This document shows, piece after piece, positions 31,966-56,858 of a stretch of 64,000 nucleotides of DNA (within the stretch, counting starts at the first letter, position 1; each line of letters opens with the position of its first letter). The notes beneath the pieces are model-generated. The model worked only from the letters and a program-made list of their open reading frames with translations, did no database searches and was not told the DNA's origin. The position numbers were made by a program, and so were the translations under genes. Origin of the DNA: an uncultured Gemmatimonadales bacterium (lineage in GTDB: Bacteria; Gemmatimonadota; Gemmatimonadetes; Gemmatimonadales; GWC2-71-9); contig CAWHFW010000005.1 of assembly GCA_963828735.1 (NCBI GenBank), forward strand, positions 1,024,001 to 1,088,000. The letters run 5' to 3'.

Positions 31966-31982
31966 GCGCTGCTGTTGTCTCG

Positions 31983-34050: not shown

Positions 34051-34127
34051 CTTATTCCAGTCCCGGATCTAGCCGCTGTCTAACCCATATTCGACTTCAT
34101 TCCCTTGGCACCTGAAACCACCGCGGA

Positions 34128-37429: not shown

Positions 37430-38377
37430 TCACGAGCCGTCGAACGCCAGCTCCTTCCGCGCCCGCCGCTCGAGCGGCACGAGACTGCGATACAGGAAAT
37501 CGTGCGCGGGCGTCTCGATCCCCTTCTCCCGTCCGAGCCGCACCACCGCTCCACTCTGCGCCTCGAGCTCGGACATCCGGCCGGCGACGATGTCCCGCTG
37601 CATCGAGGTCGTGCCCTCCGCCGGCAGCGAGTCGGTGAACGCGAGCGTCTCGGCGACGACGGTGGCGGGGAGTGCGACGCCGTGGGCCGCGGCTACCCGG
37701 CGCACCTCGTCCATGGCGCGGGCGAGCAGCTCGCGGGTCTCGGGCAGGGTGCGGAGCACGCCGATGGGCGCCCGGGTCACGGCGCCGAGCCCGCTCAGGG
37801 ACGAGATGAAGAGGAACTTGCGCCACATCTCGGCGCGGACGTCGGTGAGGGCTTCGGCGGTGAGGCCGCGCGCGCCGCCGAACGCGGCCTGGAGGCGGCG
37901 GACCCGGTCGCTCATGCCGCCGGCCAGCTCGCCGAAGCCGATGTAGGGCTCGGCGCCCTCGTGCCGGATCTCGCCGGGGGCGGACACCCAGGCGATGATG
38001 CGGCAGAGGCCGCCGATCACGCGGTCGGGACCGAGCGCGGCGCCAAGCTGGGCCGGCGCCTCGACCCCGTTCTGCAGCGGGACGACGAAGGTATCGGCAC
38101 CGAGGAGCGGGCCCATGGCGCGGGCGGCGTCGGGGACCTGCCAGGCTTTGACGCCGAGGAGAATGACGTCGGCGGGGCCGAGATCGGCGGGGGTGTCGGA
38201 GACGCGGGCGGGGTGGATGGCGAAGTCGCCTTCGGGGCTCGTGACGCGGAGGCCGCGCTCGCGGATCGCGCGGAGGGTGTCGCCGCGGGCCAGAAAGGAG
38301 ACATGCTCGCCGGCCTCGGCGAGGCGGCCCCCGAAGTAGGCGCCGACGGCGCCGGTGCCGAACACCAGGAAGCGCAT
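37430..38377 (-). CDS. panE: 2-dehydropantoate 2-reductase (ketopantoate reductase)
   Basis: GTGAVG Rossmann motif, GVKAWQ, LQNGV, MWRKF, SMQRD, SELE. Confidence 0.85.
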   Translation of the reverse strand: MRFLVFGTGAVGAYFGGRLAEAGEHVSFLARGDTLRAIRERGLRVTSPEGDFAIHPARVSDTPADLGPADVILLGVKAWQVPDAARAMGPLLGADTFVVPLQNGVEAPAQLGAALGPDRVIGGLCRIIAWVSAPGEIRHEGAEPYIGFGELAGGMSDRVRRLQAAFGGARGLTAEALTDVRAEMWRKFLFISSLSGLGAVTRAPIGVLRTLPETRELLARAMDEVRRVAAAHGVALPATVVAETLAFTDSLPAEGTTSMQRDIVAGRMSELEAQSGAVVRLGREKGIETPAHDFLYRSLVPLERRARKELAFDGS

Positions 38378-38479
38378 GTCACTCAATGAGTGCTACCATT
38401 GGTCCATTCGTTGGCCCCACGGCTCATGAAGGTGTTCAAGAGGCTTCAACCATCCCTCAGAATAATGGGGGGTTAAGAG
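38371..38479 (+). repeat. About 110-bp direct repeat with 50271-50379 (panE start, upstream region and site core)
   Basis: GCATGTCACTCAATGAGTGCTA...TCCATTCGTTGGCCC...GCTCATGAAGG...CCATCCCTCAGAATAATGGGGG(G)TTAAGAG in both. Confidence 0.85.
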
Positions 38480-38503
38480 AGAGATAGAGCTCAGCTGTTC
38501 ACC
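38444..38503 (+). repeat. Palindromic site family, site A
   Basis: CTTCAACCATCCC-TCAGAATAAT-GGGGGGTTAAGAGAGAGATAGAG...GTTCACC. Confidence 0.85.
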
Positions 38504-38774
38504 TTCCCTTGGTTCAGAGCTGACCATGGAACCGACGACAGGCCGTGGCAGGAGTCGACCGCTGCGGTATATAGGTGCATCTTGAGCAACGCCCACCTGC
38601 TTCATTCGCAGCGTCATTACGGCAGCTATCAATCGGGTTTGAGCGCAGAAGTGCCCTCGGCACGTAGGGTTAGAGCGCACGGGACAGGATGATTGATCTG
38701 ACACTGCGTGATTTACACTGCGGACACCGCAGTCTAATTCTAGTTAGGCCTCACTCGACCCTCCGGAGGGCGGC

Positions 38775-39539
38775 ATGGCGGATCTTCAGGCCTTTAGCCT
38801 CGAGGGCCAGGTTGCCGTTGTCACCGGCGGCAATGGCGGTATCGGCCGTGCTATCGCGCTCGGATTGGCGGGCGCGGGGGCAAGAGTTGCCATTTGGGGG
38901 CGAAATAGCGAGAAGAACGCGGAGGCCCTCGCAGCGTTGCGGACAGTGGGTCCTCCGACGCTGGCCTTGGCAGTCGACGTGGCGGACCGGAGCCAGCTGC
39001 AACCAGCGCTGGCCGCCGTCGAGAGGGACCTCGGGCCAGTGTCCATTCTCGTCAACAACGCGGCGGTCGCAGCCTTCGGTGGGGTCTTAGACCTTTCGCC
39101 GGAGGACTGGGATCGGGTCATCGAGACCGACTTGACGGCGTGCTTCCTCCTTGCCAAGTACGCCGCGCAATCGATGGTCAGGCGGCAAGCGGGCAAGATC
39201 ATCAACCTGGCAAGCACCTACTCGCTCTTTGGCTCCGCCTTCGCGCCGTCCTACAGCGCGGCCAAAGGAGCGATCATGCAACTGACAAAGTCCCTCGCGA
39301 TTGAGCTTGCACCCCACAACATTCAGGTGAACGCCATTCTCCCGGGCTGGATCGATACCGATCTTACGGGGCCGATAAAGGACATGCCGCTGTACCAGGA
39401 GATCCTGACGCGAACGCCGGCGGGCCGTTTTGGGACGCCCGCTGAATGCGCTGGGGCCGCGGTGTTTCTCGCGTCACCGGCGGCCCGGTTCGTCACAGGC
39501 ACGGCGCTCGTGGTGGATGGGGGGTACGCGATTCGATGA
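38775..39539 (+). CDS. Short-chain dehydrogenase/reductase (KduD/gluconate 5-dehydrogenase-like)
   Basis: TGGNGGIG, NNAA, YSAAK, PGWIDT. Confidence 0.9.
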   Translation: MADLQAFSLEGQVAVVTGGNGGIGRAIALGLAGAGARVAIWGRNSEKNAEALAALRTVGPPTLALAVDVADRSQLQPALAAVERDLGPVSILVNNAAVAAFGGVLDLSPEDWDRVIETDLTACFLLAKYAAQSMVRRQAGKIINLASTYSLFGSAFAPSYSAAKGAIMQLTKSLAIELAPHNIQVNAILPGWIDTDLTGPIKDMPLYQEILTRTPAGRFGTPAECAGAAVFLASPAARFVTGTALVVDGGYAIR

Positions 39540-39706
39540 CGCCGGCGCCGTTCAGTTGCAGGAGGCACACTCCGCTGGCTGTTCAGGGGAACGTTAGTTA
39601 GCGCATGAGCGAGCGGGTCGGTTGCAGCTGATGCGCAGGTCGTTAGGCAACCCCGATCCCCGCTGCCCCTTGGAACTGACCGCAGATCGCTGTGAGCACC
39701 GAGCGC

Positions 39707-42688
39707 TCATCGCGTTCGGCGCGACAGCCGGGCAAGGCCCGCCTGGGCTTCCGCCGCATATTTCGCCAGTTCCGGGTCGGCGTGGCGCCAGGAGTCGGCG
39801 ACGTGCCGATAGGCGCGCCGTGCGGTGGGCAGGTCGCCAAGCCGCTCGGCGACCTTCGCCCGAATGAGCAGCCCGTAGACGGCCAGACCACCATTCATCT
39901 GCGGAACCCATTGGTCGAGAATCGCCGCGGCTGCTCGATCCTCGCCGCGCGCGGCCAGCAAGACCGCCGCCGTGACTTTCTCCCACTGGCAGTTCACGAG
40001 CGCACAATAGACGCTGTCCGGAAGGGCCGCGAAGCGACGCATGGCATTCGCGGTGTCGGCACGGGCCAGGGCGAGATACCCCCCGGCGGCACCATAGAAA
40101 TACTGTGCCGGCCGCACGTTCGCGGCAGGGCCGCCGCGCCCGGCCGCTTCCCGCATCCGACGCTGGAAGAGCGCCAGTGAGGTAGTGTCACGACGCCCCG
40201 CCCACCACGGCAGCCCGCCCCACCGCCGCTCATAGGCATCGGTGACGATGACGCCCGGCTCGAGGCTCGGGGCGTAGGCGCGCGCCGCGTCACCTGCCGG
40301 GATGGCGCCGAGGAACACAAGAGTGGGAAGCGGGTCCATCCAGGCACGCCACCAAACGCTCGGCCGCTCCGCGGCCAGGTCGGCATGATCGAGGCTCAGC
40401 GCCTCGCGCAGGTGGCCCCGACGAATCAGCGCGCCCGCGACGTAGCGGGTGCGCATGGGCGGGTCGACCACCCACTCCACTGCCTCGCCCGGGCGGACCT
40501 GGCGCCGGGCGAGCCGGCGGAGCAGCTGGACCGCGGTCTCATGCGCGTCGGGCACCCACAGGAACATCATGCCCGCATCGAAGAGCACTTCCGCCGGCAC
40601 CGAATCCAGCTCCGCGGCAAGCGCCTCGGGCCGCCGGGCCTCGGGGAGCAGCAGCAGCCGGCCCTCCAGCCGCACCGAGGCGCTATACGCCGCCACGGTG
40701 CGGAGCTCCGCCGCCGCCCGCGCATGGTACGCCGCACGGTCTTCCCTGCCGGTCCGCAGGGCGACCTCGAGGACGTGTTCGTAGGCCGGGCCGAAGCCGG
40801 GATCGAGCTCGATCGCGCGCTCGAACGCGTCGAGCGCCTCGGGCAGACTCTGGCCCAGGCCGATCGGTGCGTGATATCGCGATTCTCCGAGGGCCATCCA
40901 GGCCTCGGGGTCGGCAGGGAACCGACGCGCGGCCTCCTGCCGCCGCGCGAGTGCCGAAACCCAGTTCTCCGGGTGCCCGTGGTCCGCGGTCCAGGCCAGA
41001 GATTCCGCCGAGATCAGCAGGCTGTCCCTGGCGGACAGCCCGTGGTTGTGATCGAAGGCCTGTCGCGCGTAGTAGTCGACCGGCTGATACGACGCAGAGG
41101 TGGGGGGATGCCAGCCGAGGATCTGCGCCATACGATACTGAGCGAGCGTGAAGCTGCTGTCTCCGGTGAGCGCCTCCTGGTAGGCGACCAGCGCCGAATC
41201 GTAGCTGCCTCGGCGGTAGGCCTGTTCGCCGGCGAGAAATGCCTTGAGCGCGCCGAGGGGCGCCGAGCCGATCGCCGCCTGTCGCACCGCCGCGACCGGC
41301 CGGGTCCGCGAGAGGGTCCGCAGGATTCCGAGGCCGAGCGAATCGGCCAGTACGCCCAGCGCCGAGGCGGAGCCTTCGACTTCGACCTCGCCAAGCAGCT
41401 CGTCGTCCCGCACGTCGAGCAGCGTGGCCCGAAGCCGGACTCGCCCGCCCTCCAGCTGGCTCACGCCGCCGGTGGCAACGATGCCGGCACCGGTCTGCCG
41501 GCCGAGGGTGAGCGCCGACGCGCGGTCCGAGCGTCCGGCCCATCCATGGAGCACCACGGAGGGCGACACGGTCCGGAGGCTGCCCGCGCCGTCGAGCGTC
41601 CGCGCGAGCAGGTCCACCACGCCTTCGCGCCACACCTCGAGGCCCGGCCCGGTCACGTCGAACGGAGCCACGGCGAGAAGGCTGGGGTCGAGCCCGGGCG
41701 CCCCGCGGTCGCGGAATCGGACGAGCCAGATGCCCGCCGCCAGGAGCACGACCGCCAGCGCTCCCGCCGGCGCGAAGCGCCAGGGTGAACGGCGACGCGG
41801 CAGCGCAGGGGGCGGCGTGCTGACCACCTGCCCGCCGAGCGCCGCCGCGAACTCCCGCCCGGTGGCGAAGCGGTCGACCGGCGCCTTTGCCAACACCCGC
41901 GCGAGCGCGGCCTCGACCGCGGCCGGCACCGTCTCGCGAAGCATGCGTACCGGCGGAATCGGCTGGGTCAGCCGCTTCGCGGCGATGGCCTGCGGGGAGG
42001 CGCCCATATGCGGGGGCTCGCCGGCCAGCATCTCGTACAGCACGCAGCCGAGGGCGAAGAGGTCGCTCCGGCCATCGATCGCCCCGTCACTCAGGAACTG
42101 CTCGGGACTCATGTAGAGCGGCGTCCCCAGGGCCAGGCCGGTCCCCGTCAGGCGCTCGCCGGCCGCGGCGCCCACAGCCAACGCAATCCCGAAGTCGGCC
42201 ACCACCGCCTCGCCATCGTGCAGCAGGATGTTCTCGGGCTTGATGTCGCGGTGGATGATGCCATGGCGGTGCGCGTGATCGAGCGCGCCTGCCACCTGGC
42301 TCGCTACGTCCAGCGCTTCGTCGACCGGCAGCTGCCGCTCCCGGGTCAAGCGGGCGCGCAGCGTCTCACCCGCGACGTAGGGCATGACGTAATAGGGAAG
42401 GTCGATCGCCGGGTCGCCGTTGGCGGCGGGAAGCCGGGCGAGGCCGGAGTCGAACAGAGCAAGGATGCGGGGATGCTGCAGGCCGGCCATCGTCCTGACC
42501 TCGGCCAGGAAGCGATCCACGCCGAGCATCGCGGCCAGCTCGGGGCGCAGGAGCTTGAGCGCAACCCGGCGGCCGTGCTTCAGGTCCTCCGCGAGGTATA
42601 CCCGCGCCATCCCTCCCTGCCCAAGTTCGCGCTCGAGGCGGTACTCGCCGGCCAAGGCGGCGGAAAGCCTCTCGAAGGCGTCGACCAT
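39707..42688 (-). CDS. Ser/Thr protein kinase with TM, TolB_N-like and TPR region (paralog of 34128-37009)
   Basis: GQGGMARV, HRDIKPEN, DFG, GTPLYMSPEQ; LAVAPFDV and WREGVVDLLARTLDGAG shared with the paralog. Confidence 0.9.
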   Translation of the reverse strand: MVDAFERLSAALAGEYRLERELGQGGMARVYLAEDLKHGRRVALKLLRPELAAMLGVDRFLAEVRTMAGLQHPRILALFDSGLARLPAANGDPAIDLPYYVMPYVAGETLRARLTRERQLPVDEALDVASQVAGALDHAHRHGIIHRDIKPENILLHDGEAVVADFGIALAVGAAAGERLTGTGLALGTPLYMSPEQFLSDGAIDGRSDLFALGCVLYEMLAGEPPHMGASPQAIAAKRLTQPIPPVRMLRETVPAAVEAALARVLAKAPVDRFATGREFAAALGGQVVSTPPPALPRRRSPWRFAPAGALAVVLLAAGIWLVRFRDRGAPGLDPSLLAVAPFDVTGPGLEVWREGVVDLLARTLDGAGSLRTVSPSVVLHGWAGRSDRASALTLGRQTGAGIVATGGVSQLEGGRVRLRATLLDVRDDELLGEVEVEGSASALGVLADSLGLGILRTLSRTRPVAAVRQAAIGSAPLGALKAFLAGEQAYRRGSYDSALVAYQEALTGDSSFTLAQYRMAQILGWHPPTSASYQPVDYYARQAFDHNHGLSARDSLLISAESLAWTADHGHPENWVSALARRQEAARRFPADPEAWMALGESRYHAPIGLGQSLPEALDAFERAIELDPGFGPAYEHVLEVALRTGREDRAAYHARAAAELRTVAAYSASVRLEGRLLLLPEARRPEALAAELDSVPAEVLFDAGMMFLWVPDAHETAVQLLRRLARRQVRPGEAVEWVVDPPMRTRYVAGALIRRGHLREALSLDHADLAAERPSVWWRAWMDPLPTLVFLGAIPAGDAARAYAPSLEPGVIVTDAYERRWGGLPWWAGRRDTTSLALFQRRMREAAGRGGPAANVRPAQYFYGAAGGYLALARADTANAMRRFAALPDSVYCALVNCQWEKVTAAVLLAARGEDRAAAAILDQWVPQMNGGLAVYGLLIRAKVAERLGDLPTARRAYRHVADSWRHADPELAKYAAEAQAGLARLSRRTR

Positions 42689-42864
42689 CGCGGCTCGATG
42701 CATGGGGGAGTCGAACGGGACTGCTTCAACCCCATTGTACACGCGATGCAACCCGTCAGCCAGACACGGTAGTGTCCGGTTTTCAATCAGACACTACCGC
42801 CAGCCGCCCACGGGCGAGCAAACGCTGCGGCCTGGTTACCCGTCCGCGTAACTCCCGTGCCCCT

Positions 42865-43452
42865 GGGAGCTCTCAGTGGGCATCGAGCGGCTGATGAAGC
42901 TGGTCATAATTCTCGACTACATGGCTGACGTGCTCGAGGTCCGGCACGGGGGACTCAAGAGATACGTCCACGATCTGCTGTCGCGTTAGTGACTTCGGCA
43001 AGGGGACTCGTTATTACAACTTGGATGCGTTGTCCAAAGGTCAGAATCTTCCTGACCCGCTAGAGGCGTGGAGTGAGCTACTCGAAAGAATAGTCAGAGA
43101 AGATCTCGATCCTGGCCGGCTCGCAGCTCTTGTTGACCAAGCTGCTGACCTAGCAGCGCGCTTAGAGTCTCATACTTATGTAGTTGCTCATGATTTGCGC
43201 AAACGCCCGCTCTCGCTGCATGACGCCTTGACTATTCCACGGCTACATGAATTTGCAGCACCACGAGCTTGTTGGGTCCTATACGAGATCTTGGTACCAC
43301 TCCGTGAGCTCGTGTTTACTGCATGGGAGCGAGCCTATTCGACGAATAGCCGGGTCTCACCAGGCGTCGCAGGAATACCGTACATGCCCGAGTTCCTTAC
43401 CTTCTTGAACTATGATCGGCGCGCCGTCCTCAAGAAGCGTCGCTGGCCTTAG
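42865..43452 (+). pseudogene. Decayed HEPN-like hypothetical gene
   Basis: LSVGIERLMKLVIILD...LKRYVHDL, then DFGKGTRYYNLD...KKRRWP in a broken reading frame; lower GC. Confidence 0.4.
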
Positions 43453-43874
43453 CAGCTTCAGTTCAAGCGCGGTACTCGCCGAGACCGAGCATTTACGCTC
43501 CCAGGAGCCCCTTGAGAGTGTGACGCTACCAGGATTCAGAGCATCGAGCGGGCATTCCGGTGTACGCCGGGACTGTTCCCGAGCGTGGGCTGACACTAAT
43601 AACATCATCCTGGGTCACGGTGCCCGGCGTGCAATAGTGCACTCCGGGGCAACGGTTCATGCCACGAGTGACCCGTGGCCATCTCACCGAAAAGTGGCGA
43701 AAGAAGTTCGACGAAATTGTGGCCAAGGCTCCCGTGCTCAAACAGAGACCAGATCGCCTGTAGGATCGCGAAGAGATTTCAACCCATAGCGGCTTTACTC
43801 GTCCCCGCTCGAAGTAGCACCGCTCTGCCACGTCTCGCCACAGGAGTGGCAACTAACCATCGGCACGCTACTCC

Positions 43875-44651
43875 CTACGATGCAGGGTTGGGTTCAGGTG
43901 CTGGGCTGCCTCTGCACGTGCCACAATACCGTCGGTCGACGGAGCCTCTGTAGCGGTCTTTGTTGTACCAGTATGTTTCACCCGACGCAATTACCCGCTG
44001 ACATAACGCACAGCTCCAACTCTTGCGAGCACGCGCGGAGTTGATAGCACTGCGGGCTCTGGCGAGGTCAAGCTCTCTCTGTATTGCTAGGTTAGCTGCC
44101 CGTGTCGCCATCCTCTGGGGCTCAGTAACCCTCATGTAAGTAGCCCCTACGAGCACGGGGAAGCCTAAAGCCCACAAGAGAAAGATTGCCTTCTCAGGCT
44201 CATTGTACTTGCTGTACCATCCATGAATGCAGTTCCCGTGTGTACACCCATCTGCAACCGCTTGATTCAGGACAGAGCAGCCAGCAAAGTAGATGAGTGC
44301 CACAAGCGCTGCGCCTACACGGAGGATACCCACCTTGTGCCGGCGCCAAAGGACAACAACCAGGCAGTAAAGCACAAGGAGCGCACAGAGAGCGAGGGTG
44401 ATCAAAAGCAGCATGTCTAAGGCGCGTTGTGGTAGGTGTGGGACGAACTGCAGCTTAGGGTAAGGAAGAGGCAGCAAGTGTTCGCCGTAATCATCCGTGG
44501 CAGTGTTCAAATAATAGATAAGCAGGGCCCCGAGAAGTATTCGGGTTGTCCACAGAGTTGGCGGCTGCCACCGATCCTTGACGATGACTCGGCTACCTTT
44601 CCGAGGCGCCTCAGCAGGCCCCAGTTGCAGATGAAACATCTTGCATTTCAC
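43875..44651 (-). CDS. Hypothetical membrane protein with C-terminal CxxC...CxxC zinc-ribbon-like motif
   Basis: About four hydrophobic segments; CALC...CGTC; lower GC than flanks; start uncertain. Confidence 0.45.
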   Translation of the reverse strand: MKCKMFHLQLGPAEAPRKGSRVIVKDRWQPPTLWTTRILLGALLIYYLNTATDDYGEHLLPLPYPKLQFVPHLPQRALDMLLLITLALCALLVLYCLVVVLWRRHKVGILRVGAALVALIYFAGCSVLNQAVADGCTHGNCIHGWYSKYNEPEKAIFLLWALGFPVLVGATYMRVTEPQRMATRAANLAIQRELDLARARSAINSARARKSWSCALCQRVIASGETYWYNKDRYRGSVDRRYCGTCRGSPAPEPNPAS

Positions 44652-44978
44652 AACCCATCATCTCAGCAGTGTTCAGCTTCTACCGCTGAATCTAGATGTC
44701 CGCAACTGACCCGCTTGCAGAGCTGTGAGCGAGAAAGGGGTCTGAGCAACCGTGGTCCCACCAAGGATGCCCTCACCCACAGTCAGAAGAATGCGAATAA
44801 CCTTTATCTTGGCAGCACTGATCGTGGCGCCCGAATCGCGTCGATGAGACATCCCTAGACCGAGAGCTGTATATGCGACAAGGCCTTAGCGGCGGCGCGG
44901 GTTTGTGCCAGGCCGTCATGTAGTTGCCCTGACCTGTGCTGCACTACTTCAGCGTAGTACAACACCAGCAGCTGGCTG

Positions 44979-45060
44979 GGTGAACTGAGCGCTATCTCTA
45001 TCTCTTAACCCCTCAGAATAATGGGGGGTGAAGAGATAGACGGGCCCGCTCGGTTCACCC
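44979..45060 (+). repeat. Palindromic site family, site B (both arms)
   Basis: GGTGAAC...CTCTATCTCTTAACCCC-TCAGAATAAT-GGGGGGTGAAGAGATAGA...GGTTCACC. Confidence 0.85.
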
Positions 45061-45208
45061 TCTCGGCCGTCCCTCCGATTGACCGGTGAGGAGCAGAGGG
45101 AGTCGGCCCAGTTCACCTCAATGGCTGACGTCGGCTCTCGGCACAAAGACTTGCTAGCAATCCGCCGCAGCCGGGGCCACATTCCAGGCGTCTCCACCCG
45201 GCAGTCCC

Positions 45209-47878: not shown

Positions 47879-48031
47879 CGGGGCCGCCGTGCGATGCGTA
47901 AAGCGTCGTGAGTCCGTCTGGCGTCCTCGGCGAGTCCCAGACCCCGCTCGGCAGCCTTCTCACCCGCCGGATCCATCCCACTGTTCACATGGCAGTCAAC
48001 CACTCTGAAGGCAGATCTAAGCCCGAGGAAA

Positions 48032-48090
48032 GGTGAACAGCCCGGCTCTATCTCTCTCTTAACCCCTCAGAATAATGGGGGGTTAAGAGC
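48032..48090 (+). repeat. Palindromic site family, site C
   Basis: GGTGAACAG...CTCTATCTCTCTCTTAACCCC-TCAGAATAAT-GGGGGGTTAAGAG; the left arm is the near-exact inverted complement of the right arm of site A. Confidence 0.85.
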
Positions 48091-48159
48091 AAGGGCGAGG
48101 CTTCGGATAGGCGACCTGCGGCCGCTTTCTTCGATGCCCTTGCAGCTCAACTCTATCCG

Positions 48160-49020
48160 TTAGGCAGCGCCGCCGGCCGCAACGTACGACGCGCCACTCC
48201 TCGCAACCTCTTCACGGAATGCACCGAGGCGCTGGTTGAACTGTGCGGCATCGTCCCAGAACGCGGCATGACCTGCGTCGGGCATGACGTCAACCTGCGC
48301 GTGCGGCAGCCCCGCGCGGTGTTGCGCGACGACCTCCTGTCTGACGACCGCGTCGAGCGCGCCATGCGTGATCAATACGGGCTTCATGATGGTCGGCAGG
48401 AGGTCGTCGTTGTCGACGACGCGCGTCAGCAGCGCCTGACGGACGAACGGCGGCACGGACACGTTGAAGCCCAGCATCGTGTACAGATCCGACGCCTCCG
48501 GCTCGCGGGCGAAGCACAGGTGCAGCAGCGCCTCGAGGCCGCGCACGCTCTCGCCCACCTCACCCGAGAAGAGCCCGGGCAGGAGGGCAAGGAACTCCGC
48601 CGAGAGCACCGCCGCGGCCGCTTCGCTGCCGAGCTTCGTGACCGCGCCCACCAGGTGAATCCCGCCGATCCGCTCCTCGCCGTAGTGCCGGATGTAGTCG
48701 AGGATGACGAGCGGCCCGTACGACCAGCCGCAGAGAATCGGTCGGTCGAGCTCCAGCTCCCTGATGGCGGTGTCGACGTCGGCCGCCCAAAGCCTCGAGT
48801 CATCGTAGCCGTCGTGCGGCCGCTCCGACGAGCCGTGGCCACGCAGGTCCATGGCGACAAGGCGGTACCGGTGCGCGAGCTCGGAGCGCATTTGCCGGTC
48901 CCAGGTGAGCCAGCTCTGTGAGCAGCCGTGGAGAAACAGGATCGATGGACCGCGTGGCTCTCCCGCTTCGACGAGGTGGAGCCGAGTGCCTCCTCCGCCG
49001 ATGCACGTGTGGTGCTTCAT
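48160..49020 (-). CDS. Alpha/beta hydrolase (non-heme haloperoxidase-like)
   Basis: FLHG, DLRGHG.S, GWSYG, HG.LD, AGHA; GGAG RBS. Confidence 0.85.
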   Translation of the reverse strand: MKHHTCIGGGGTRLHLVEAGEPRGPSILFLHGCSQSWLTWDRQMRSELAHRYRLVAMDLRGHGSSERPHDGYDDSRLWAADVDTAIRELELDRPILCGWSYGPLVILDYIRHYGEERIGGIHLVGAVTKLGSEAAAAVLSAEFLALLPGLFSGEVGESVRGLEALLHLCFAREPEASDLYTMLGFNVSVPPFVRQALLTRVVDNDDLLPTIMKPVLITHGALDAVVRQEVVAQHRAGLPHAQVDVMPDAGHAAFWDDAAQFNQRLGAFREEVARSGASYVAAGGAA

Positions 49021-49169
49021 CAGTCTCCTCCGCTTCGGATTGCCGTTCTGATCACCGCACTGGGTTACCGCGACCGATGCCCGCGGCGTGGCGCATCGGC
49101 ATTGAGATAATGACCGGCCCGCGATACGTTGGGATCGGACGAACCGTCCTATACGCGGAGGGCCCCGCC

Positions 49170-49976
49170 ATGGGCCTGGCGATGCGACAAGTGGATCTCG
49201 AGCGGCTCGATCGTGCGCTGACCACCATCCTGTCGCCGCTCGCGCACCAGCACTGCGACGACTGGTGTCTCGCCGTCGAGTCGTCAGTCGCGGAGCTGCT
49301 CGACGGCGATCACGTCGTGTTCGGGTTGCCCCGCGCCGGCGTGCCGATGCACGTCCATTCCATGAACGTGGCGGCGAAGCCGCAGCGCGCGATCCAGACG
49401 CTCTTCGGCAGGCTGCCGGACCTGCCGCCGGATCCTTGGCTTCAGAGTGCTGAGCGCGAGCGGCTGCGCTCTGGCGCTGAGGTGTGGAGTCGGGTCCGTG
49501 CATTCCGGCGGGCGGCCGCTGGGCAGCCGGCGGCACTACGGCGCTCGGCCTTCCTCGGCGAGGTCCTCACGCCCGGCCGGATATACGACAGCGAGAACAT
49601 CGACTGGCCTGTCGCCGACGGACACACCGCGCTGTGCATCTCGTACAGCAACGTCGAGACGTCTGTTCGTTCGCGCCGGGCGAGCCCAAGACATGCAGCG
49701 GGAGCGCTGCTCCGACTACTGCTCCCCACGCTCAAGGTGGGAGTCACCATGCGTCTCGCGCGTGACCGCGAGGTCGCGTCGGAGCTGACACTCGGACGGT
49801 TCGGGCTGACCAGGCGTGAGGCGCAGATCGCGCGTCTGCTCGCGCGCCGAGCGACGAACAGGGAGATCGCCGATCAGCTCGACGTGAGCCCGCACACCGT
49901 GCGGCATCATGTCGAGAATATTTTCGCGAAGCTCGGCATCCATTCGCGCCGCTCCATCGCCTCGCAGTTCGCGTGA
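49170..49976 (+). CDS. LuxR-type HTH transcriptional regulator
   Basis: LTRREAQIARLL...TNREIADQL.VS.HTV..H..NIF.KLG; divergent from the hydrolase. Confidence 0.8.
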   Translation: MGLAMRQVDLERLDRALTTILSPLAHQHCDDWCLAVESSVAELLDGDHVVFGLPRAGVPMHVHSMNVAAKPQRAIQTLFGRLPDLPPDPWLQSAERERLRSGAEVWSRVRAFRRAAAGQPAALRRSAFLGEVLTPGRIYDSENIDWPVADGHTALCISYSNVETSVRSRRASPRHAAGALLRLLLPTLKVGVTMRLARDREVASELTLGRFGLTRREAQIARLLARRATNREIADQLDVSPHTVRHHVENIFAKLGIHSRRSIASQFA

Positions 49977-50344
49977 CCGAGCGACGCGAGCTCCCGACAT
50001 GCTCCGGCTGCAGGGCTTGTCTGTAGTGGACGGATACCTGATGGTATCCGCGAAATATTTGGGGGTGACATACGGCGATGTGGACGCGAGCCTGCGAGCT
50101 CGGATGGCACGGGTACGTGGTCCTTCTATACGTCACCTAGGCTAGTCCGCAGTTGGAACTCAAGTTAGCAAAGCTGCTTCAGGCTAATCACACCATCTAC
50201 TCGGCCAGTCATGCGGAGCAGCTACTTGCAAGCCGCACGCCCCCACCTAGCGTACCCATGCTAGAGGCGGAAACGCATGTCACTCAATGAGTGCTATCAC
50301 CGTCCATTCGTTGGCCCAACGGGCTCATGAAGGCGTACAAGAGC

Positions 50345-50430
50345 CTTCGACCATCCCTCAGAATAATGGGGGTTAAGAGCAGAGGGCACCGGCGATTCGC
50401 CCCTTCAACCATCCTTCATTCCTTTGGAGG
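50345..50430 (+). repeat. Palindromic site family, site D (two sites in tandem, cores TCAGAATAAT and TCATTCCTTT)
   Basis: CTTCGACCATCCC-TCAGAATAAT-GGGGGTTAAGAGCAGAGG...CTTCAACCATCCT-TCATTCCTTT-GGAGG. Confidence 0.8.
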
Positions 50431-50698
50431 CTCCGGCATTCTCTGGATTCTTGTCTGGGTTCGGACTCGGGTTCTGCCCCGGATTCTGGTGCGGATTCTC
50501 CGCCGCGGATTTCTTTGCCGGAGCAACCCCCTCGATCCCGGTCGCCCGTGGAAAGCTTCGCTGATGGAGCGCTAATTCGCCTGCCACTTCGTCCGCTGAA
50601 TCACTGGGCGCGTCGGTCGGCTTCCAGCCGGGTTCTAGGCAGGACATCTCGTGTAATCCTGCCATCCAGCTGTAGAATCCGGCGAAGTTAGGAGCTCG

Positions 50699-51535
50699 TT
50701 AGCTGCCTTCGAGGGCACCGATCCGCTCCGCAATGGCCTGGTTCCACTCCTTCCCATCAGCGCCATGATGGACCCGCCGATGGCAGGTGGGACAGAGCGC
50801 AGCCACCCATCGTGGATGGTCCGGTCCTCCGTCCGCGAGGCGGCGGATATGGTGTGGCTCCAGGTAGGGTTGCTTGGCGGGGTCAAGAAAGGAGCTGCTT
50901 CACCGCAGCCCTCGCACATGCCGCTGGCGCGCTTCCGAACATAGATCCGCACGGCCTCACTGCGCCGTCGCACAATGGTCCGTCGTTCTTTCGCTGTGGC
51001 ACTTCCTGAGGCTCCAGCGAGGGCGGCCACCCGGAGCTCGGCTAAGATCGCGGCCGCGGAGGTCCGGGCTTGGCCGCTCCGCATCCACTCGAAGATCGGG
51101 AACGACCGCTTCCGGCTCGCGATCGTTTAGCGCCAGCTCAAAGACTAGGGCACGACGAAGCGTTCCATTGCGATCCGGCGCCGTGGCGTCGTGAACGCCC
51201 AGGTAGGCCGCCTCACCGAGGTAGCGGACCCAGCCAGTGCGTATGGACTCAAAGAGATGAAGTGTTTTGCCCTCGGCTTCGTGGTCCCGAATCGCCCGGT
51301 TGCCTCGGACCATCTCCATATCGCCGACCTGACCCTCACCCGTATACCAGAACGTCCCGTCCTCCTGGAATCCATCGCTGTACCCGTACTGTTCGCCGGA
51401 TTCACCGGTGAAGAGCAGGAGGATCGGAAAGCGTTGGGGCGTGCTGATACCGCCCTGGCGCTGGCCCCCGTACTTGGCGTGGAGGTCGCGCCGACGATAC
51501 TCCGCCCCGATCGTGAACTGACGCGCGTCAGGCAT
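50699..51535 (-). CDS. SRA-HNH modification-dependent (type IV) restriction endonuclease; two frameshifts (~51045, ~50880)
   Basis: YGG..QGGISTP...YGY.DG...YTGEGQ.GDM...GN.AI SRA-like domain; CEGC, then LEPHHIRRLADGGPD...ALCPTCHRRVH HNH motif across frames. Confidence 0.75.
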
Positions 51536-51926
51536 GCCGATTCAGCAGGTGCATGGCGAAGGCTCGATCAGTTGGGGCCAGTTCGTACTCTAGCAATTCG
51601 GAGCGCGGAACCCAGGCTACCGCGTCGTGCTCGAGCGCCTGCGGCTCGCCCACGGCGGCTACCTCCGCGAACTGGATCAGGAACTCGGATCCGGGGTCCT
51701 GCCGCTCGAAGAGGATCGCTCCTATGCTCTCCACTTGAAGCCCGAGCTCCTCTGCAAGTTCACGCTTGGCGGCTGCTAAATGATCCTCGTCATAGGCTAA
51801 CTTACCGCCTGGAAATTCCCAGAGTCCACCGTGGCGTTTACTTCTGGGCCGTTTCGCGAGCAGCACACAACTGTCTCGCGCGACGACGGCAGCAAGAACT
51901 CGGACAACAGGCGATTGCTGTCTCAC
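51528..51926 (-). CDS. Nudix hydrolase (MutT/NudG-like)
   Basis: WEFPGGK...E....AAKRELAEELG Nudix box; stop overlaps the SRA-HNH start. Confidence 0.85.
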   Translation of the reverse strand: MRQQSPVVRVLAAVVARDSCVLLAKRPRSKRHGGLWEFPGGKLAYDEDHLAAAKRELAEELGLQVESIGAILFERQDPGSEFLIQFAEVAAVGEPQALEHDAVAWVPRSELLEYELAPTDRAFAMHLLNRHA

Positions 51927-52165
51927 GGAGCGTGCTTCCTTCAATATGGAATGCCAACTCGTGGCTACGACTGGGGGCATGAACTTGGCGCAGGTCAACG
52001 TCGGGGAAGCCCCCCAGAATCTATCCGATCCCAAGCCAGATGAGCTCAGGTTGGCTCTGTGGACAGGGAAGTGGGCAGCGGCCGAAATCACGAGCTTGGC
52101 GTTCGAGCCATCCTACCCTCCCGCTTCTACCGCTCGAATGTTTCGGCCAAGATTGGCTACGCCAC

Positions 52166-54808
52166 TCACGATCCGTTCGCTAGCCGTTCGAACTTGGGAT
52201 CGCCGCGCAGGGGTGCGAAGCTAGGGTCAAGCCTCAGCCAGCCGGGCGAGAAGAAGGATGGGACACTCAGCATCGCCTCAAGCGTATCGAGCGCCTTCTC
52301 CCGCTCCCCGACAAGCAGGTAGATGCGCACTAGCTGGCGCTCGTTGTAGGGTTTGCCGATGGAACCCTTGATAAGCGCGACACCGCGCTCGCCCTCGCGA
52401 ATGGCCTCGAGCCGCCGGCCCAAGTATGCGAGTGCCACCCCCAGCGCGCTGTGAGCGCCGGCGTCATCCGGCGCTTTCCGCAAGACATTCTCTAGGCCTA
52501 TGCGTGCCGAGTCGGCGTAGAAACGCACCCGAGCTTGATCACCTCGGAGGGCATAGATCTCGGCAAGCGCGAGCCCCCAATTGCCGCGATTACCATCAAA
52601 GTCATCCGGCACTAAGTGGAGGAGCCGCACTTGCTGAGCACTATCGAGCAGCCAGTACACCGGCGTATAGAGATCGGAAACGTATGGCAATAGGGTCGTG
52701 GCTTTCACAGCTCGGGCCGCCGCCCGCAAGGCGTTCTGGGCACCTGCCAGGTCGCCTTCTCCGACGTAAGTCTCAACCCTCATCTCCAGCACCTCTACCT
52801 TGTCGGGAACCAGGGCAAGCACATGGTCCGCCTCTTGGCGCGCCTCACGCCAGCGTCGAAGCGAGTTGAGGAGAGTAGTCAACCTGGATGACGGCAGGAT
52901 CGAGCGCGGGTCGAGAGCCTGCGCCTGCTTGAGATGTCCAATAGCAGCCTCCCACCGACCCAAGAAGTACTCCGCTGTCCCGGCCTGTGTAAGCAGCTCC
53001 ACGTTGGTCGGAGTGACCTGGAGCCCAGTCTTGTAGGCTTCAAGCGCCCCCGCGAAATCCTCGCGAACGAGAAACAGGTACGCCCCCCAGGCAAACTGCG
53101 ACTCGGGCCGGCCAGGCCCGAGCGCCCGAGCGCGCTCCGCGGCCACGCGCGCAGCTTCAGCGGTGGATGGGCTTGATATACCTACCGCGTATAGGTGCGC
53201 ATGCGCGCGGGCAAGCTGGGCCCAGGCCGCCACGAAGTTCGAGTCCAGCGTCACCGCCCGTTCATAGAAGCCAATGGCCCGGTGCAGGGTGGGGATGTCC
53301 CACGCATCACCTGATGAGACAGCCTCGCCCTTGAGGAAAGCATCGTACGCCGCGGCGTTGGCCGTCGGCGGCTGGGCGAGGAGCCGGCGCTGGTCCTCGC
53401 CCAGGACAACGTCCAAAGCCTCAACCACACGGCTTGCGATGTCTGCTTGCACCTGGAAGACACTGGTGAGAGAGGCATCGAACGGCTGCTGCCACTTCAT
53501 CGCCCCGGTACTGGCATCCACCAGCTCGGCGCTGACGCGCACACGCCTCTCGCTCGAGGCGTGCTTCTCCCACTGCACTCGTCCGAGGAGCAGATACCGA
53601 ACGGCTAGCTCGTGCGCGATCTTTCGAGGGGACTCGGTGGTATTTCGATACTGATTCGAGCTAGTGGAGGCAATCACCGTGAGGGCTGGCAGGTTGGCCA
53701 GCTTGCCCCGAATCTCACTTGCGATACCCTCCGCAAGATATGCCTCACTGGTGTCGCCCAGATTGTCAAACGGGAGAACGGCCAACCGCGTAGGCTGTGC
53801 AGTTCCAGCGGCCGCTGGAACTGCCTCCCGGTGACGTCCGCGTGAGGCGAGTACGGCAGTGCCGACCACCGCGATCACCACGAGCAGCACGCCTGCCTTC
53901 GTTCGTACGGACCTCCAAGGATCCAGTACCTGCGGCGACGCTCTGACCCATGAATTAGAGGCCGACGACATCGCCGCAGGATTCGCGAGCGCTGCAGCGA
54001 ACTGGCCGGCGGATCTAAATCGGTCGGCCGGGACTCTTGCCAGCGCCTTGAATACGACGGCTTCAATGCCTGTCGAGACGGTGTCTCGAACGGTGCGCAG
54101 CGGACGCGGGTTCTCGGTCAAGCGGCGCGTGATGATGGCCTGGGTCGTGGGGCCGGTGAACGGCGGCTCGCCAGCGAGCATTTCGTAGAGTACCGCGCCC
54201 AGCGAGTAGAGGTCGGTGCGCAGGTCTACTTCCCTGTCCCCGCTCGCTTGTTCGGGGCTCATGTAGACGGGCGTTCCCACGGCCAAACCGGTATTGGTCA
54301 GATGCTCCTGGTCGGCTCCCACCGCTCGGGCCACGCCGAAGTCCGCCACAAGAGCGTCCCCGCTAGCCGTCAGCAGAATGTTTTCGGGTTTGATGTCACG
54401 GTGAATTACGCCTTGGGCGTGAGCGCATTCCAGGGCACGCGCAACCTCGCCGGCAATGCGGATGGCGTCATCTGTCGGTAATTGACGTTCGCGCCGCAAG
54501 CGGTCGCGCAACGATTCTCCGTCGACAAATGGCATCGTGTACCACAGATGCCCGGCTATTTCCCCGGAATCGTGCACCGGGAGAATATGGGGATGCTGCA
54601 GCCCAGCGGCGAGTCGGATCTCTCGCTGGAACCGTTCCGGCCCGAGGCTCGCCGCCAACTCGGGGCGGAGCACCTTGAGCGCGACCTTCCGGTCATGCTT
54701 TAGGTCGTTCGCGAGGTAGACCGTAGCCATGCCGCCCCGGCCGAGCTCGCGCTCGATGAGGTAGCGGTCGCGGAGAGCGTCCCCAAGTTGGATGGTGATG
54801 TCGGCCAC
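52166..54808 (-). CDS. Ser/Thr protein kinase with TM, TolB_N-like and TPR region (paralog of 45209-47878)
   Basis: GRGGMATV, HRDIKPEN, DFG, SPEQ; RLAVLPFDNLG; SPGWLRLDP.FAPL. Confidence 0.9.
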   Translation of the reverse strand: MADITIQLGDALRDRYLIERELGRGGMATVYLANDLKHDRKVALKVLRPELAASLGPERFQREIRLAAGLQHPHILPVHDSGEIAGHLWYTMPFVDGESLRDRLRRERQLPTDDAIRIAGEVARALECAHAQGVIHRDIKPENILLTASGDALVADFGVARAVGADQEHLTNTGLAVGTPVYMSPEQASGDREVDLRTDLYSLGAVLYEMLAGEPPFTGPTTQAIITRRLTENPRPLRTVRDTVSTGIEAVVFKALARVPADRFRSAGQFAAALANPAAMSSASNSWVRASPQVLDPWRSVRTKAGVLLVVIAVVGTAVLASRGRHREAVPAAAGTAQPTRLAVLPFDNLGDTSEAYLAEGIASEIRGKLANLPALTVIASTSSNQYRNTTESPRKIAHELAVRYLLLGRVQWEKHASSERRVRVSAELVDASTGAMKWQQPFDASLTSVFQVQADIASRVVEALDVVLGEDQRRLLAQPPTANAAAYDAFLKGEAVSSGDAWDIPTLHRAIGFYERAVTLDSNFVAAWAQLARAHAHLYAVGISSPSTAEAARVAAERARALGPGRPESQFAWGAYLFLVREDFAGALEAYKTGLQVTPTNVELLTQAGTAEYFLGRWEAAIGHLKQAQALDPRSILPSSRLTTLLNSLRRWREARQEADHVLALVPDKVEVLEMRVETYVGEGDLAGAQNALRAAARAVKATTLLPYVSDLYTPVYWLLDSAQQVRLLHLVPDDFDGNRGNWGLALAEIYALRGDQARVRFYADSARIGLENVLRKAPDDAGAHSALGVALAYLGRRLEAIREGERGVALIKGSIGKPYNERQLVRIYLLVGEREKALDTLEAMLSVPSFFSPGWLRLDPSFAPLRGDPKFERLANGS

Positions 54809-54974
54809 GGCTGGCCTAGAGTGGAGGATCTTGGAATCTGTACTGTCTCACTGCGACTTGCTAGCACGAGGGACGTCTGCTAGCGCCTCGCATCCCTGCT
54901 TGTACTCGGTACAGCGGCAAATTCTTCGAAGAATCGAGGGAGCGTGGAACGTTACTGACATTTTTGAGAGTTGT

Positions 54975-55033
54975 CTTTATACCCTTCATTCCTTTGGAGG
55001 GTTAAGAGATAGGTTGGGGTGATCAGTTCACCC
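54975..55033 (+). repeat. Palindromic site family, site E
   Basis: CCTTCATTCCTTTGGAGG (identical to 50413-50430) followed by GTTAAGAGATAGG...CAGTTCACCC. Confidence 0.8.
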
Positions 55034-55133
55034 GACTACATTCTTACTGGCAGAATCAGCAGGTGCACGCCAGACGTCCAAATCGGTTGATTAGCCCCCT
55101 GACCTGGCTCGGTTCAGGAACTGAGAGCTACCC

Positions 55134-56858
55134 GTGCTCCCGAGGCAGACCTTGAAGCTCGTCTCCTTCGCGATCCGCAACTTCCGCAGCATCAGCAATA
55201 CTTCCAAGCTCCCCATTCGTGATTCAGTCACTGCTCTCATTGGACCAAACAATGAGGGCAAATCGAACCTGCTACGAGCCCTGGTGACTGCGATGGAAGT
55301 AGTAAGCAAGCTCGAGGCCTACACCCTTACTCGGCACGGCCGGATCAGGGGCTACTTAATGATGGACAGGGCCTACAATTGGCCGCAGGATTACCCGATT
55401 CATCTGCAGGACAAGAACCCAGAAGGGGAGTCGCAGTTTGACCTGGAGTTCGAGCTAACTGATGCGGAAGTGTTGGCCTTCAAGCAAGAGGTGGGCAGCT
55501 CACTCAATGGGACGCTTCCCATTCGCATAACGATCGGCAAGAATGAGCCGAAGTTCAGCGTACGCAAACAAGGCCCTGGTGCGAAGACGCTTTCTGCGAA
55601 GGCAGACAAGATCGCAGCCTTCATCGGGAAACGGCTCGACTTTCAGTACGTACCGGCTGTCCGGCCCGCGAGTGCCGCGACCAACGTAGTAGAAGAGATT
55701 GTCGCTCGCGAGTTGCAGACGTTGGCGCAAGACGAAGAGTATCGTGCGGCGGTCCAGAGAATTGAGGAACTCCAGGAGCCCATCCTGCACACTATCTCAG
55801 AGAATATTCGAGACACCTTGCAGGCATTTCTCCCAAACGTTAAGGGTGTCAGAGTTGCGGTGCCCCAGGATGCCCGCTATCGAGCTCTCTCACGTTCCTG
55901 CGAAGTGATAGTAGATGATGGCACGCCCACAAACTTGTCGCGCAAAGGCGATGGAGTGCAAAGCCTTGCCGCACTAAGTCTGATGAGGCACGCCTCTCAA
56001 AGAACTGCGAAAGGTCGCCAGTTGATTTTGGCAATTGAGGAACCAGAGTCGCACTTGCACCCGAAGGCGATTCACCAACTTCGCACGGTCTTGACTGAGA
56101 TCGCGGGTCAACATCAAGTCATTATCACTACTCATTGTCCGGTGTTTGTCGACCGCGCCGATCCCAGTGCTCACATTCTTGTCACTGAGAGCGAAGCGGC
56201 GCCTGCAGAGTCTGTCCAGGAGATCCGTGACATCCTCGGAGTAAAGGTATCCGACAATCTGACCACTGCCGAGGTGGTTCTCCTTGTGGAGGGAGAACAC
56301 GACAGGACAGCTATTAGGGAGTTGCTAGTACACTCCTCGCCAGTTCTGGCTAAGGGGCTTTCGCAAGGTGCGCTTGCGATTGACAGCCTCTTGGGAGGAG
56401 GGAATCTGGCATACAAAGCCTCGCAGGTGCGTGATGCTATGTGTGTCGTTCACGCGTTAATTGACCACGATCAGAGCGGGAAAACCTCCGTTCAGCGGGC
56501 GGTAACGGAAGGCCTGTTGACGATAGCCGATGTGACTTATACCAGTTGTTTGGGAATGACAGAGTCCGAGATCGAGGATTGGTATAATCCGGCGCTCTAT
56601 GTACCCGTGTTAGCAGCGGACTATTCCCTGAACGCGACTAGTCCACACTTTACCTCAACAAAGAAGAAGTGGACCATACGCATGAAGGAGCTCTTCATGT
56701 CGAGCGGCAAGGGCTGGGATGAGAAGGTCGAGGGAACAATCAAGCGGCGGGTTGCCGATACTGTTGCTGCGAATGCAGCGGGAGCCATTCACCCTGCGCG
56801 TTCCGACGGCATGGCCTCGCTCGTTGGCGCCCTTGAAGCAAAACTTGGCAAAGTGTAA
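55134..56858 (+). CDS. OLD-family ATP-dependent endonuclease (ABC ATPase + TOPRIM)
   Basis: Walker A GPNNEGKS, KGDGVQS signature, Walker B IEEPESHLHP, TTH; TOPRIM LVEGEHD...DHD; lower GC. Confidence 0.85.
   Translation: MLPRQTLKLVSFAIRNFRSISNTSKLPIRDSVTALIGPNNEGKSNLLRALVTAMEVVSKLEAYTLTRHGRIRGYLMMDRAYNWPQDYPIHLQDKNPEGESQFDLEFELTDAEVLAFKQEVGSSLNGTLPIRITIGKNEPKFSVRKQGPGAKTLSAKADKIAAFIGKRLDFQYVPAVRPASAATNVVEEIVARELQTLAQDEEYRAAVQRIEELQEPILHTISENIRDTLQAFLPNVKGVRVAVPQDARYRALSRSCEVIVDDGTPTNLSRKGDGVQSLAALSLMRHASQRTAKGRQLILAIEEPESHLHPKAIHQLRTVLTEIAGQHQVIITTHCPVFVDRADPSAHILVTESEAAPAESVQEIRDILGVKVSDNLTTAEVVLLVEGEHDRTAIRELLVHSSPVLAKGLSQGALAIDSLLGGGNLAYKASQVRDAMCVVHALIDHDQSGKTSVQRAVTEGLLTIADVTYTSCLGMTESEIEDWYNPALYVPVLAADYSLNATSPHFTSTKKKWTIRMKELFMSSGKGWDEKVEGTIKRRVADTVAANAAGAIHPARSDGMASLVGALEAKLGKV

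What the first reader, a model, noticed from the sequence alone, without database searches (positions are those of the whole stretch)
38371..55033. Unrecognised palindromic site family separates gene modules: a candidate cassette-accretion system
Seen: five loci (38444, 44979, 48032, 50345, 54975) plus an outlier at 1024-1089 share the arm GGGGTTAAGAG, usually with a GTTCACC box further inside. Arms face each other around a short asymmetric core (TCAGAATAAT four times, TCATTCCTTT twice). All sites are intergenic and delimit modules: [SDR, kinase, two lower-GC genes], [kinase alone], [hydrolase + LuxR], [SRA-HNH, Nudix, kinase], [OLD nuclease]. The right arm of site A and the left arm of site C are near-perfect ~37-bp inverted repeats. 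Sites B and C have both arms, as circle junctions (attP-like) would. An 18-bp direct repeat (50413-50430 and 54983-55000) brackets the HNH/kinase module. Known: inverted arms around an asymmetric core, and TAA-N6/7-TTA, recall tyrosine-recombinase sites (dif/pdif modules, tandem integrative elements). The sequence matches no site I recognise and no recombinase is in the window. Inference: non-autonomous cassettes integrated in tandem by a trans-acting recombinase.
Basis: partly seen in the sequence, partly recalled or inferred. Interest (0 to 1): 0.85.

Follow-up and report, generated by a model that had tools for sequence, protein, structure and literature searches.

The report
Tandem stack of stripped-down casposons
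The repeated palindromic sites are the ends and 14-base insertion scars of casposons (jumping DNA moved by a relative of the CRISPR enzyme Cas1), stacked at one target in a soil bacterium; these copies carry cargo genes but no enzyme of their own.

Summary
[quoted passage not shown] All 32 such 14-mers across loci differ, yet they are identical around each module. In two same-family Gemmatimonadales genomes, related TIRs and a perfect 14-bp TSD enclose cas1 plus polB, i.e. casposons; one splits a host gene that is intact in this genome. The window holds two complete enzyme-less elements (38470-45011, 45026-48065) inserted in tandem behind a leader-like motif (CTTCAACC), plus three partial ones. 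No casposase or polB remnant was found in the genome. Whether they moved as mini-casposons (about 0.6) or are full casposons gutted in place (about 0.3) is unresolved. Unusual: 14 of 40 junctions have the target motif just inside another element's TIR, giving nested stacks and 61-62-bp periodic arrays. Tandem casposons, solo TIRs and engineered mini-casposons are published; my paper searches found no natural enzyme-less cargo stacks and no Gemmatimonadota casposons. This scan has noted stripped casposons in other taxa before.

The parts
38444..38455 (+). Target ('leader') motif CTTCAACCATCC of site A
   Evidence: Found left of the 14-mer in 19 of 36 arms collected with a pattern that did not contain it; host-coded in G468/G209, with an empty copy at G000 C2:650531
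38456..38469 (+). TSD1 copy 1 (CTCAGAATAATGGG)
38470..45011 (.). Element M1, 6,542 bp, complete: TIR-cargo-TIR with perfect 14-bp TSD, no cas1/polB
38470..38503 (+). M1 left TIR (GGGTTAAGAG-N17-GTTCACC)
38775..39539 (+). SDR oxidoreductase cargo; a 94% identical copy in G195 sits between two attC-like repeats
39623..39648 (+). 3' tip of an attC-like repeat after the SDR (label from recalled attC pattern)
39707..42751 (-). Ser/Thr kinase-TPR cargo
43021..44651 (.). Two lower-GC ORFs without family match (43021-43452 +, 43875-44651 -)
44979..45011 (-). M1 right TIR
45012..45025 (+). TSD1 copy 2, shared tandem junction (site B)
   Evidence: crossed by near-identical contigs in runs X1 and X5
45026..48065 (.). 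Element M2, 3,040 bp, complete: TIR, one kinase-TPR gene (45209-47878 +), TIR
45081..45119 (+). Degenerate second TIR-like copy inside M2's left end
48032..48065 (-). M2 right TIR, same subtype as M1 left TIR
48066..48079 (+). TSD1 copy 3 (site C)
48080..50268 (.). Module M3: 10-bp TIR tip, attC-like tip (48141-48165), hydrolase (-) and LuxR (+); no right TIR found
50269..50369 (+). Diverged duplicate of site A's left flank (panE start codons, ~75 bp, leader motif, 13 of the 14 TSD1 bases)
50370..50428 (+). Degenerate TIR followed directly by an internal target: leader motif 50403-50414 and TSD2 copy 1 at 50415-50428 ('landing pad')
50429..54984 (.). Module M4: type IV restriction-like gene in two frames, Nudix, kinase-TPR; left TIR missing, right TIR of the second subtype (about 54950-54984)
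   Evidence: right TIR scores 24 of 36 against both TIRs of the autonomous G169 casposon
54985..54998 (+). TSD2 copy 2 (site E)
54999..56858 (+). Left TIR (54999-55032) and OLD-type nuclease gene (55134-56858); far end not found
1024..1085 (-). Outlier: solo TIR (1085-1052) with an unoccupied landing pad (leader motif 1049-1038, 14-mer 1037-1024)

Best explanation
The sites are casposon ends and insertion scars. A Cas1-type casposase recognises a leader-like motif (CTTCAACC at -12 to -5) plus the first bases of the target (consensus NTCAAA), makes a 14-bp staggered insertion of TIR-ended DNA, and leaves the leader and one 14-mer intact, so later elements land at the same place and stack in tandem. 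M1 and M2 are non-autonomous elements (ends plus cargo) inserted this way by a casposase supplied in trans by an autonomous casposon that is no longer in this genome. Some ends carry a second target just inside the TIR, so elements also nest (site D, outlier). Shown: TIR and TSD anatomy, the link of this end family to cas1+polB, the target consensus, absence of core genes here. Inferred: in-trans mobilisation, order of insertion, use of the pads.
For: G468:C1:140443-160288 splits a host gene with a perfect 14-bp repeat of that gene's own codons, has GGGATAAGAG..GTTCAC ends, and encodes Cas1 (frameshifted), PolB, an HNH-like ORF and HTH proteins. G169:C5:122307-132838 has a perfect 14-bp TSD, intact Cas1 and PolB, the same leader motif and a tandem neighbour TIR. 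Its Cas1's best solved relative is the M. mazei casposase 6OPM (E 9.7e-20), with E168/H252/E267 matching E162/H232/E247 and invariant in 16 homologues. The window's five GTTCACC-type TIRs score 21-26 of 36 against the G468 TIRs, the range they score among themselves apart from the A/C pair. A locus with the exact GGGTTAAGAG arm has a polB remnant 2.4 kb inside (G301), and L070's element holds a casposon HTH remnant. Of 7 complete TSD-TIR..TIR-TSD elements seen, 5 lack cas1. M1 and M2 keep perfect TSDs and both TIRs with no core-gene remnant at E<1e-3; M2 has under 190 bp between each TIR end and its single gene. Engineered mini-casposons move in trans and insert in tandem in M. mazei (PMC10359463, passages).
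Against: No intact autonomous casposon with the exact GGGTTAAGAG TIR was found, and none in G000 or intact in 102 same-genus genomes (2 fragments). No window module was found at a second target: close copies of the cargo (M2 kinase 91%, M3 genes 97%) in other genomes have no TIRs. M3, M4 and the OLD module each lack one end. In G510:C33 two identical 14-mers are inverted, which simple tandem insertion does not give. Among the joints listed from four runs none lies at a TSD (table cut, contigs only).
Confidence: 0.6

Rival explanations
1. Same ends and scars, but M1 and M2 are relics: full casposons inserted in tandem and later lost cas1/polB in place, keeping or gaining cargo by deletion and recombination. 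Nothing moved without its own enzyme.
For: Core remnants persist inside two other enzyme-less elements (L070 HTH, G301 polB). Autonomous copies carry cargo on both sides of the core. Cargo homologues elsewhere lack TIRs. Inactivated tandem copies and solo TIRs are described in Methanosarcina (PMC4779613, passages).
Against: Two adjacent elements would each have lost a core of several kb without trace while three TSD copies and four TIRs stayed intact; G285:C4 shows the same clean state.
Confidence: 0.3
2. One reading: att/dif-like sites of a tyrosine recombinase, with circular cassettes integrating by core homology.
For: The junction can be drawn as 13-8-13 like loxP; XerC and XerD are intact in the genome.
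Against: Cores differ at all 32 junctions (mean 7.1 of 14 identical) and are host codons in G468; no tyrosine recombinase next to the arms in the 10 genomes searched except a tRNA-adjacent integrase 5.5 kb away in G301; the end family encloses cas1+polB; a canonical dif lies elsewhere.
Confidence: 0.03
3. Ends of a DDE-transposase element or a REP/terminator-like repeat that merely resemble casposon ends.
For: GGG-starting TIRs occur in several IS families (own knowledge); an IS3-like element lies inside one module (L168, my reading of the ORFs).
Against: No shared transposase near about 40 loci (by clustering and by eye, not by a DDE profile search); one site only outside the window; 14-bp TSD, terminal CCC-3' and an upstream leader motif match casposases.
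Confidence: 0.04

Closest known systems
Casposons, bacterial family 3, especially AceAut-C1 and NitAL212-C1 (Krupovic et al. 2014, PMC4046053; parts 1-3 of 6 and supplement passages read)
   Same: TIRs starting GGG(A/T)TA, 14-15-bp TSD, cas1+polB+HTH(+HNH) core in the autonomous relatives; AceAut-C1's listed direct repeat begins CGTCAATT, like the target consensus here.
   Different: The window's elements have no cas1 or polB; many unrelated target loci rather than one; family not tested by phylogeny.
Methanosarcina family 2 casposons: tandem arrays, solo TIRs, casposase structure 6OPM (PMC4779613, PMC6977970; passages read)
   Same: Tandem elements separated by one shared 14-bp TSD; end sequence TATATCCC-3' versus (T/C)TTAACCC / TTATCCC / TATACCC here; solo TIRs.
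   Different: Published tandem copies still carry core genes (one inactivated); no internal target pads or periodic TIR arrays in the passages I saw.
Aciduliprofundum boonei casposase target (Beguin et al. 2019, PMC6614799; passages read)
   Same: Two-part target: a 7-nt leader motif upstream plus bases at the leader-TSD border; 14-15-bp duplication.
   Different: Motif is CTTCAACC at -12 to -5 here versus TCAAATC at about -15 to -9; no tRNA gene in the window.
Engineered mini-casposon of M. mazei (PMC10359463; passages read)
   Same: TSD-TIR-cargo-TIR-TSD unit moved by chromosomal Cas1 and inserted in tandem at the existing TSD.
   Different: Artificial; the window would be a natural counterpart.
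Integron cassette arrays and pdif modules (own knowledge)
   Same: Stack of enzyme-less accessory modules; some cargo here appears to come from attC-bounded cassettes.
   Different: No fixed recombination core; host sequence is duplicated on insertion.

Membership tests
Casposon (autonomous) | Terminal inverted repeats | tested here: met
   M1 and M2 have ~34-bp imperfect TIRs at both ends
Casposon (autonomous) | Target-site duplication, typically 14-15 bp | tested here: met
   Perfect 14-bp repeat three times; host-derived in G468
Casposon (autonomous) | Encodes cas1-solo (casposase) with intact active site | tested here: not met
   Not met for the window's elements or G000; met for relative G169. 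The window's elements are therefore derivatives, not autonomous members.
Casposon (autonomous) | Encodes family B DNA polymerase | tested here: not met
   No polB hit in G000; present in G169, G468, G548, G405
Casposon (autonomous) | Sequence-specific target with upstream leader motif, reused in tandem | tested here: met
   Consensus CTTCAACC-AN-CC / NTCAAANGTT over 32 junctions (partly selected by the pattern) and 19 of 36 arms found without that motif in the pattern
Casposon family 3 versus family 2 | Cas1 clade in a phylogeny with reference casposases | not tested
   No reference family 2/3 sequences were held as usable records; bacterial host and C-terminal HTH hits on PolB fit families 2/3
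Non-autonomous (mini) casposon | Moves as a unit with casposase supplied in trans | tested here: inconclusive
   No module at a second target; no joint at a TSD among those listed
Tyrosine-recombinase att / dif / pdif site | Conserved overlap core shared by recombining partners; XerC and XerD arms around 6 bp | tested here: not met
   32 of 32 cores distinct; canonical dif-like site elsewhere
REP / BIME or terminator | Many dispersed copies at gene 3' ends | tested here: not met
   One site outside the window

The most novel reading that the evidence does not exclude
Gemmatimonadales run a natural Cas1-driven cassette-accretion system: enzyme-less mini-casposons, loaded with kinases, defence genes and integron-derived cassettes, are inserted in polarised order behind a leader motif, and some ends carry their own copy of the target, so stacks grow and collapse into 61-62-bp periodic arrays of TIR + leader + variable 14-mer that gain or lose whole units (L065 has two units, L079 three, before the same merR flank). 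This would be a living intermediate between casposon transposition and CRISPR-like array building.
Probability: 0.3. Interest if true: 0.85.

Novelty: new variant of a known kind. Interest (0 to 1): 0.6.

Why it matters
Casposases are the proposed ancestors of the CRISPR adaptation enzyme, but few bacterial casposons have defined targets. This gives an intact bacterial casposase (G169), a target consensus from about 30 natural insertions, natural enzyme-less substrates and an empty target, so in-trans mobilisation and leader-polarised accretion can be tested directly. The internal target pads and periodic TIR arrays bear on how repeat arrays could arise from casposon ends. It also offers a route by which Gemmatimonadales move kinase-TPR and defence genes. 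If the elements are only decayed relics, the value falls to a new host range and target motif.

Tried and rejected
13-8-13 loxP-like reading: dropped once the 3 bases on each side of the 8-mer proved duplicated within loci and variable between them. XerC/D or other tyrosine recombinases: only XerC and XerD are intact in G000, other hits are fragments or frameshifted. Serine recombinase PF07508: none in G000. tRNA or Rfam explanation: no tRNA, only four c-di-GMP riboswitches. Idea that the arms drive the kinase expansion in this genome: 1 of 90 kinase upstream regions scored as a GTTCACC-type arm, though the matrix misses the second subtype at site E; about a dozen of roughly 40 outside loci do have a kinase next to an arm (by eye). 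panE as a fixed host att site: neighbours differ in relatives, and only G026 has a site upstream, of different sequence. Viral contigs: 4 pattern hits, none with the architecture; no casposase locus. About 24 of 56 metagenome hits and 10 of 22 GTDB hits looked like chance matches and were left out (judged by eye); 2 of 13 hits likewise (4 control hits there). Reads: contigs only, dominated by kinase paralogues; thin cover beyond 50000 is no evidence of absence; the best holders may be the window's own sample. PolB had no solved relative at E<=0.1. Third TSD copies for the neighbours of G169 and G548 were not found. No structure or complex prediction was run.
Full report
Observation. The arm GGGGTTAAGAG occurs 8 times in the window at up to one mismatch against 0.57 expected, at the coordinates given. 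The cores and the 18-bp repeat are as described. The window is G000:C5:1024001-1088000 of a 4.78-Mb, 97.5% complete genome; named relatives carrying the motif are Gemmatimonadales (11 of 22 GTDB hits). Genome-wide, a full-arm matrix finds one site outside the window and a junction pattern finds six junctions and none in a shuffled genome, so this is not a dispersed repeat.

Distribution. The exact arm (GGGTTAAGAG-N16/17-GTTCACC) is in 4 of 136 same-family genomes and 0 of 164 from two other families of the order. It gave 56 metagenome hits, about 32 with the same architecture by eye. A looser leader-14-arm pattern matched 12 of 351 family genomes, with 4 control hits.

Anatomy. Each junction is a left element, 14 variable bases, then GGG(T/A)TA(A/T)AG. 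Of 36 arms collected without any left-side constraint, 19 had CTTCAACC-NN-CC on the left, 11 an inverted arm and 6 neither (my count). The 14-mers differ at all 32 leader-14-arm junctions (mean 7.1 of 14 identical, maximum 12) but are identical on both sides of a module within a locus. That is the pattern of a target-site duplication, not of a recombination core.

The enzyme. In G468, a host gene whose orthologue is intact in G000 (C2:649815-651056) is split by a 19,846-bp element. The 14-bp repeat is that gene's own codons, the leader motif is its next codons, and the ends are GGGATAAGAG..GTTCAC. The element encodes Cas1 (PF01867, frameshifted), PolB, an HNH-like ORF (my reading; no Pfam hit) and HTH proteins. 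A family-wide Cas1 search hit 27 of 401 genomes; 8 of these carry Cas1 at 36% identity or more to the G169 protein, the rest look like CRISPR Cas1. G169:C5:122307-132838 is a complete 10,532-bp element with a perfect 14-bp TSD, the same leader motif, intact Cas1 (479 aa) and PolB (1,062 aa), and a neighbouring TIR across its far TSD. G548 shows another TIR-14-TIR junction at the end of a cas1+polB element. The G169 Cas1's best solved relative is 6OPM (E 9.7e-20), the M. mazei casposase bound to TATATCCC ends and a 14-bp target, with active site E162/H232/E247 (PMC6977970, passages); these align with E168/H252/E267, invariant in 16 homologues. It has 1,192 relatives at E<=1e-20 among 8,000 scored. 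The window's five GTTCACC-type TIRs score 21-26 of 36 against the G468 TIRs, and site E's left arm scores 24 of 36 against the G169 TIRs. Elements with the exact GGGTTAAGAG arm keep polB (G301) or HTH (L070) remnants. No intact autonomous element with that exact arm was found.

The window re-read. Behind the leader motif at 38444 lie TSD1, M1 (38470-45011), TSD1, M2 (45026-48065) and TSD1 again. Both are complete TIR-cargo-TIR units. The A/C arm similarity reflects one end subtype in opposite orientations (inference). M3 starts with a 10-bp TIR tip and ends in a diverged copy of site A's left flank, which I cannot explain by simple insertion. At D a degenerate TIR is followed at once by a second leader motif and TSD2; M4 runs from there to a second-subtype TIR and TSD2 at E, then another TIR precedes the OLD nuclease. 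M3, M4 and the OLD module each lack one end. The outlier at 1024-1085 is a TIR with an unoccupied pad. G000 has no Cas1 (the same profile did find a fragment in G077) and none of 16 casposon core proteins or fragments hits it at E<1e-3.

Mechanism. Shown: TIR/TSD anatomy, target consensus, link to cas1+polB, absence of core genes. From the literature: A. boonei casposase makes 14-15-bp duplications and needs a leader motif plus border bases (PMC6614799, passages); Methanosarcina has tandem casposons sharing one TSD and solo TIRs (PMC4779613, passages and section 10); an engineered mini-casposon moves in trans and inserts in tandem (PMC10359463, passages). Inferred: M1 and M2 were inserted as enzyme-less units by a visiting casposase (0.6), or are full casposons gutted in place (0.3). 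For the first: clean cores, perfect scars, 5 of 7 complete elements without cas1. For the second: remnants in two of those five, cargo homologues without TIRs in other genomes, no module seen at two targets, and no TSD joint among those listed from four runs. An inverted TSD pair in G510 needs a later rearrangement.

What goes beyond the published picture. In 14 of 40 junctions the leader motif lies directly inside another TIR (the set was gathered with arm patterns and includes related loci, so it is not a rate). This gives 61-62-bp periodic units with different 14-mers, two in L065 and three in L079 before the same merR flank, and four junctions in L062. Nested insertion into pads would explain them; this is inference. 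Targets are many: a secreted-protein gene, the flanks of leuS and tdk (my reading of the ORFs), and an attC-like repeat in G301, with similar flanks in L057 and L093. M1's SDR gene lies between attC-like repeats in G195 and keeps their tips here; the attC label is from the recalled pattern, not from an integron program.

Novelty. Searches: casposon (125 papers, 40 listed), casposon + non-autonomous (14), casposon + Gemmatimonad (0), casposon + solo-TIR (2), casposon + cargo + bacterial genomes + metagenome since 2021 (9), Gemmatimonad + site-specific recombination + cassette (4). Most were seen as listings only. I read parts 1-3 of 6 and supplement passages of PMC4046053 and passages of PMC9939771 and PMC13343696. 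None described natural enzyme-less cargo stacks, internal pads or Gemmatimonadota casposons; subscription papers and bioRxiv supplements were not searched. This scan's own notes report stripped casposons in Acidobacteria and casposon-like cassette rows in other taxa; I saw them after reaching this reading and did not check them. Family assignment (2 or 3) was not tested by phylogeny.

Verdict. Real feature; casposon-derived ends and scars with high confidence (about 0.9 across the first two explanations); new variant of a known kind; interest 0.6.

Noticed in passing
window 25117-25230, 26288-26404, 27542-27667 (+), 32589-32704 (-): Four c-di-GMP-I riboswitches within repeated upstream regions of 120-280 bp.
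   Followed up: no
G000 C5:2480609-2480720: Composite casposon end 1.4 Mb away: second-subtype TIR, leader motif, 13-mer, degenerate first-subtype TIR; the same composite occurs in L044, L057, L093.
   Followed up: partly
G000 C2:650531 (-): Only unoccupied match to the strict target consensus in the genome, in a gene that is casposon-split in G468 and carries an end at the same place in G209.
   Followed up: yes
G000 C2:697376-714124: Cluster of 8 attC-like repeats (128-143 bp where measured) with no PF00589 hit on that contig; possible integrase-less cassette array.
   Followed up: partly
G301 C14:90140-93873 (L114): 3.7-kb casposon derivative with a polB remnant inserted in an attC-like repeat of an array with 19 such repeats in 100 kb.
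   Followed up: partly
window 34128-37192 and 50635-51535: A kinase-TPR gene and the type IV restriction-like gene are each split over two frames; could be long-read assembly errors.
   Followed up: no
window 34096-34108: One-mismatch copy of the first 13 bases of TSD2 between two genes, without arms.
   Followed up: no
G000 genome-wide: 95 Ser/Thr kinase-domain hits at E<=1e-30; tandem kinase runs are common in the genus.
   Followed up: no
L065:1098-1737 and L079:1-1295: TIR arrays directly upstream of a merR-like gene and, in L079, mer-like transport genes (my reading).
   Followed up: partly
L043:620-680: Full leader-14-TIR junction on a 2.7-kb contig of a MAG titled Acidimicrobiales; misbinning or wider host range.
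   Followed up: no
G517 C20:16621-24592 (L216-L217): Casposase fragment and a TIR enclose a type I restriction-modification-like gene set (my reading).
   Followed up: no
G000 C1:122280 (-): Canonical dif-like site (pattern recalled).
   Followed up: no
window 30277-30362 and 31954-32039: 86-bp direct repeat (94%) flanking a subtilase gene.
   Followed up: no
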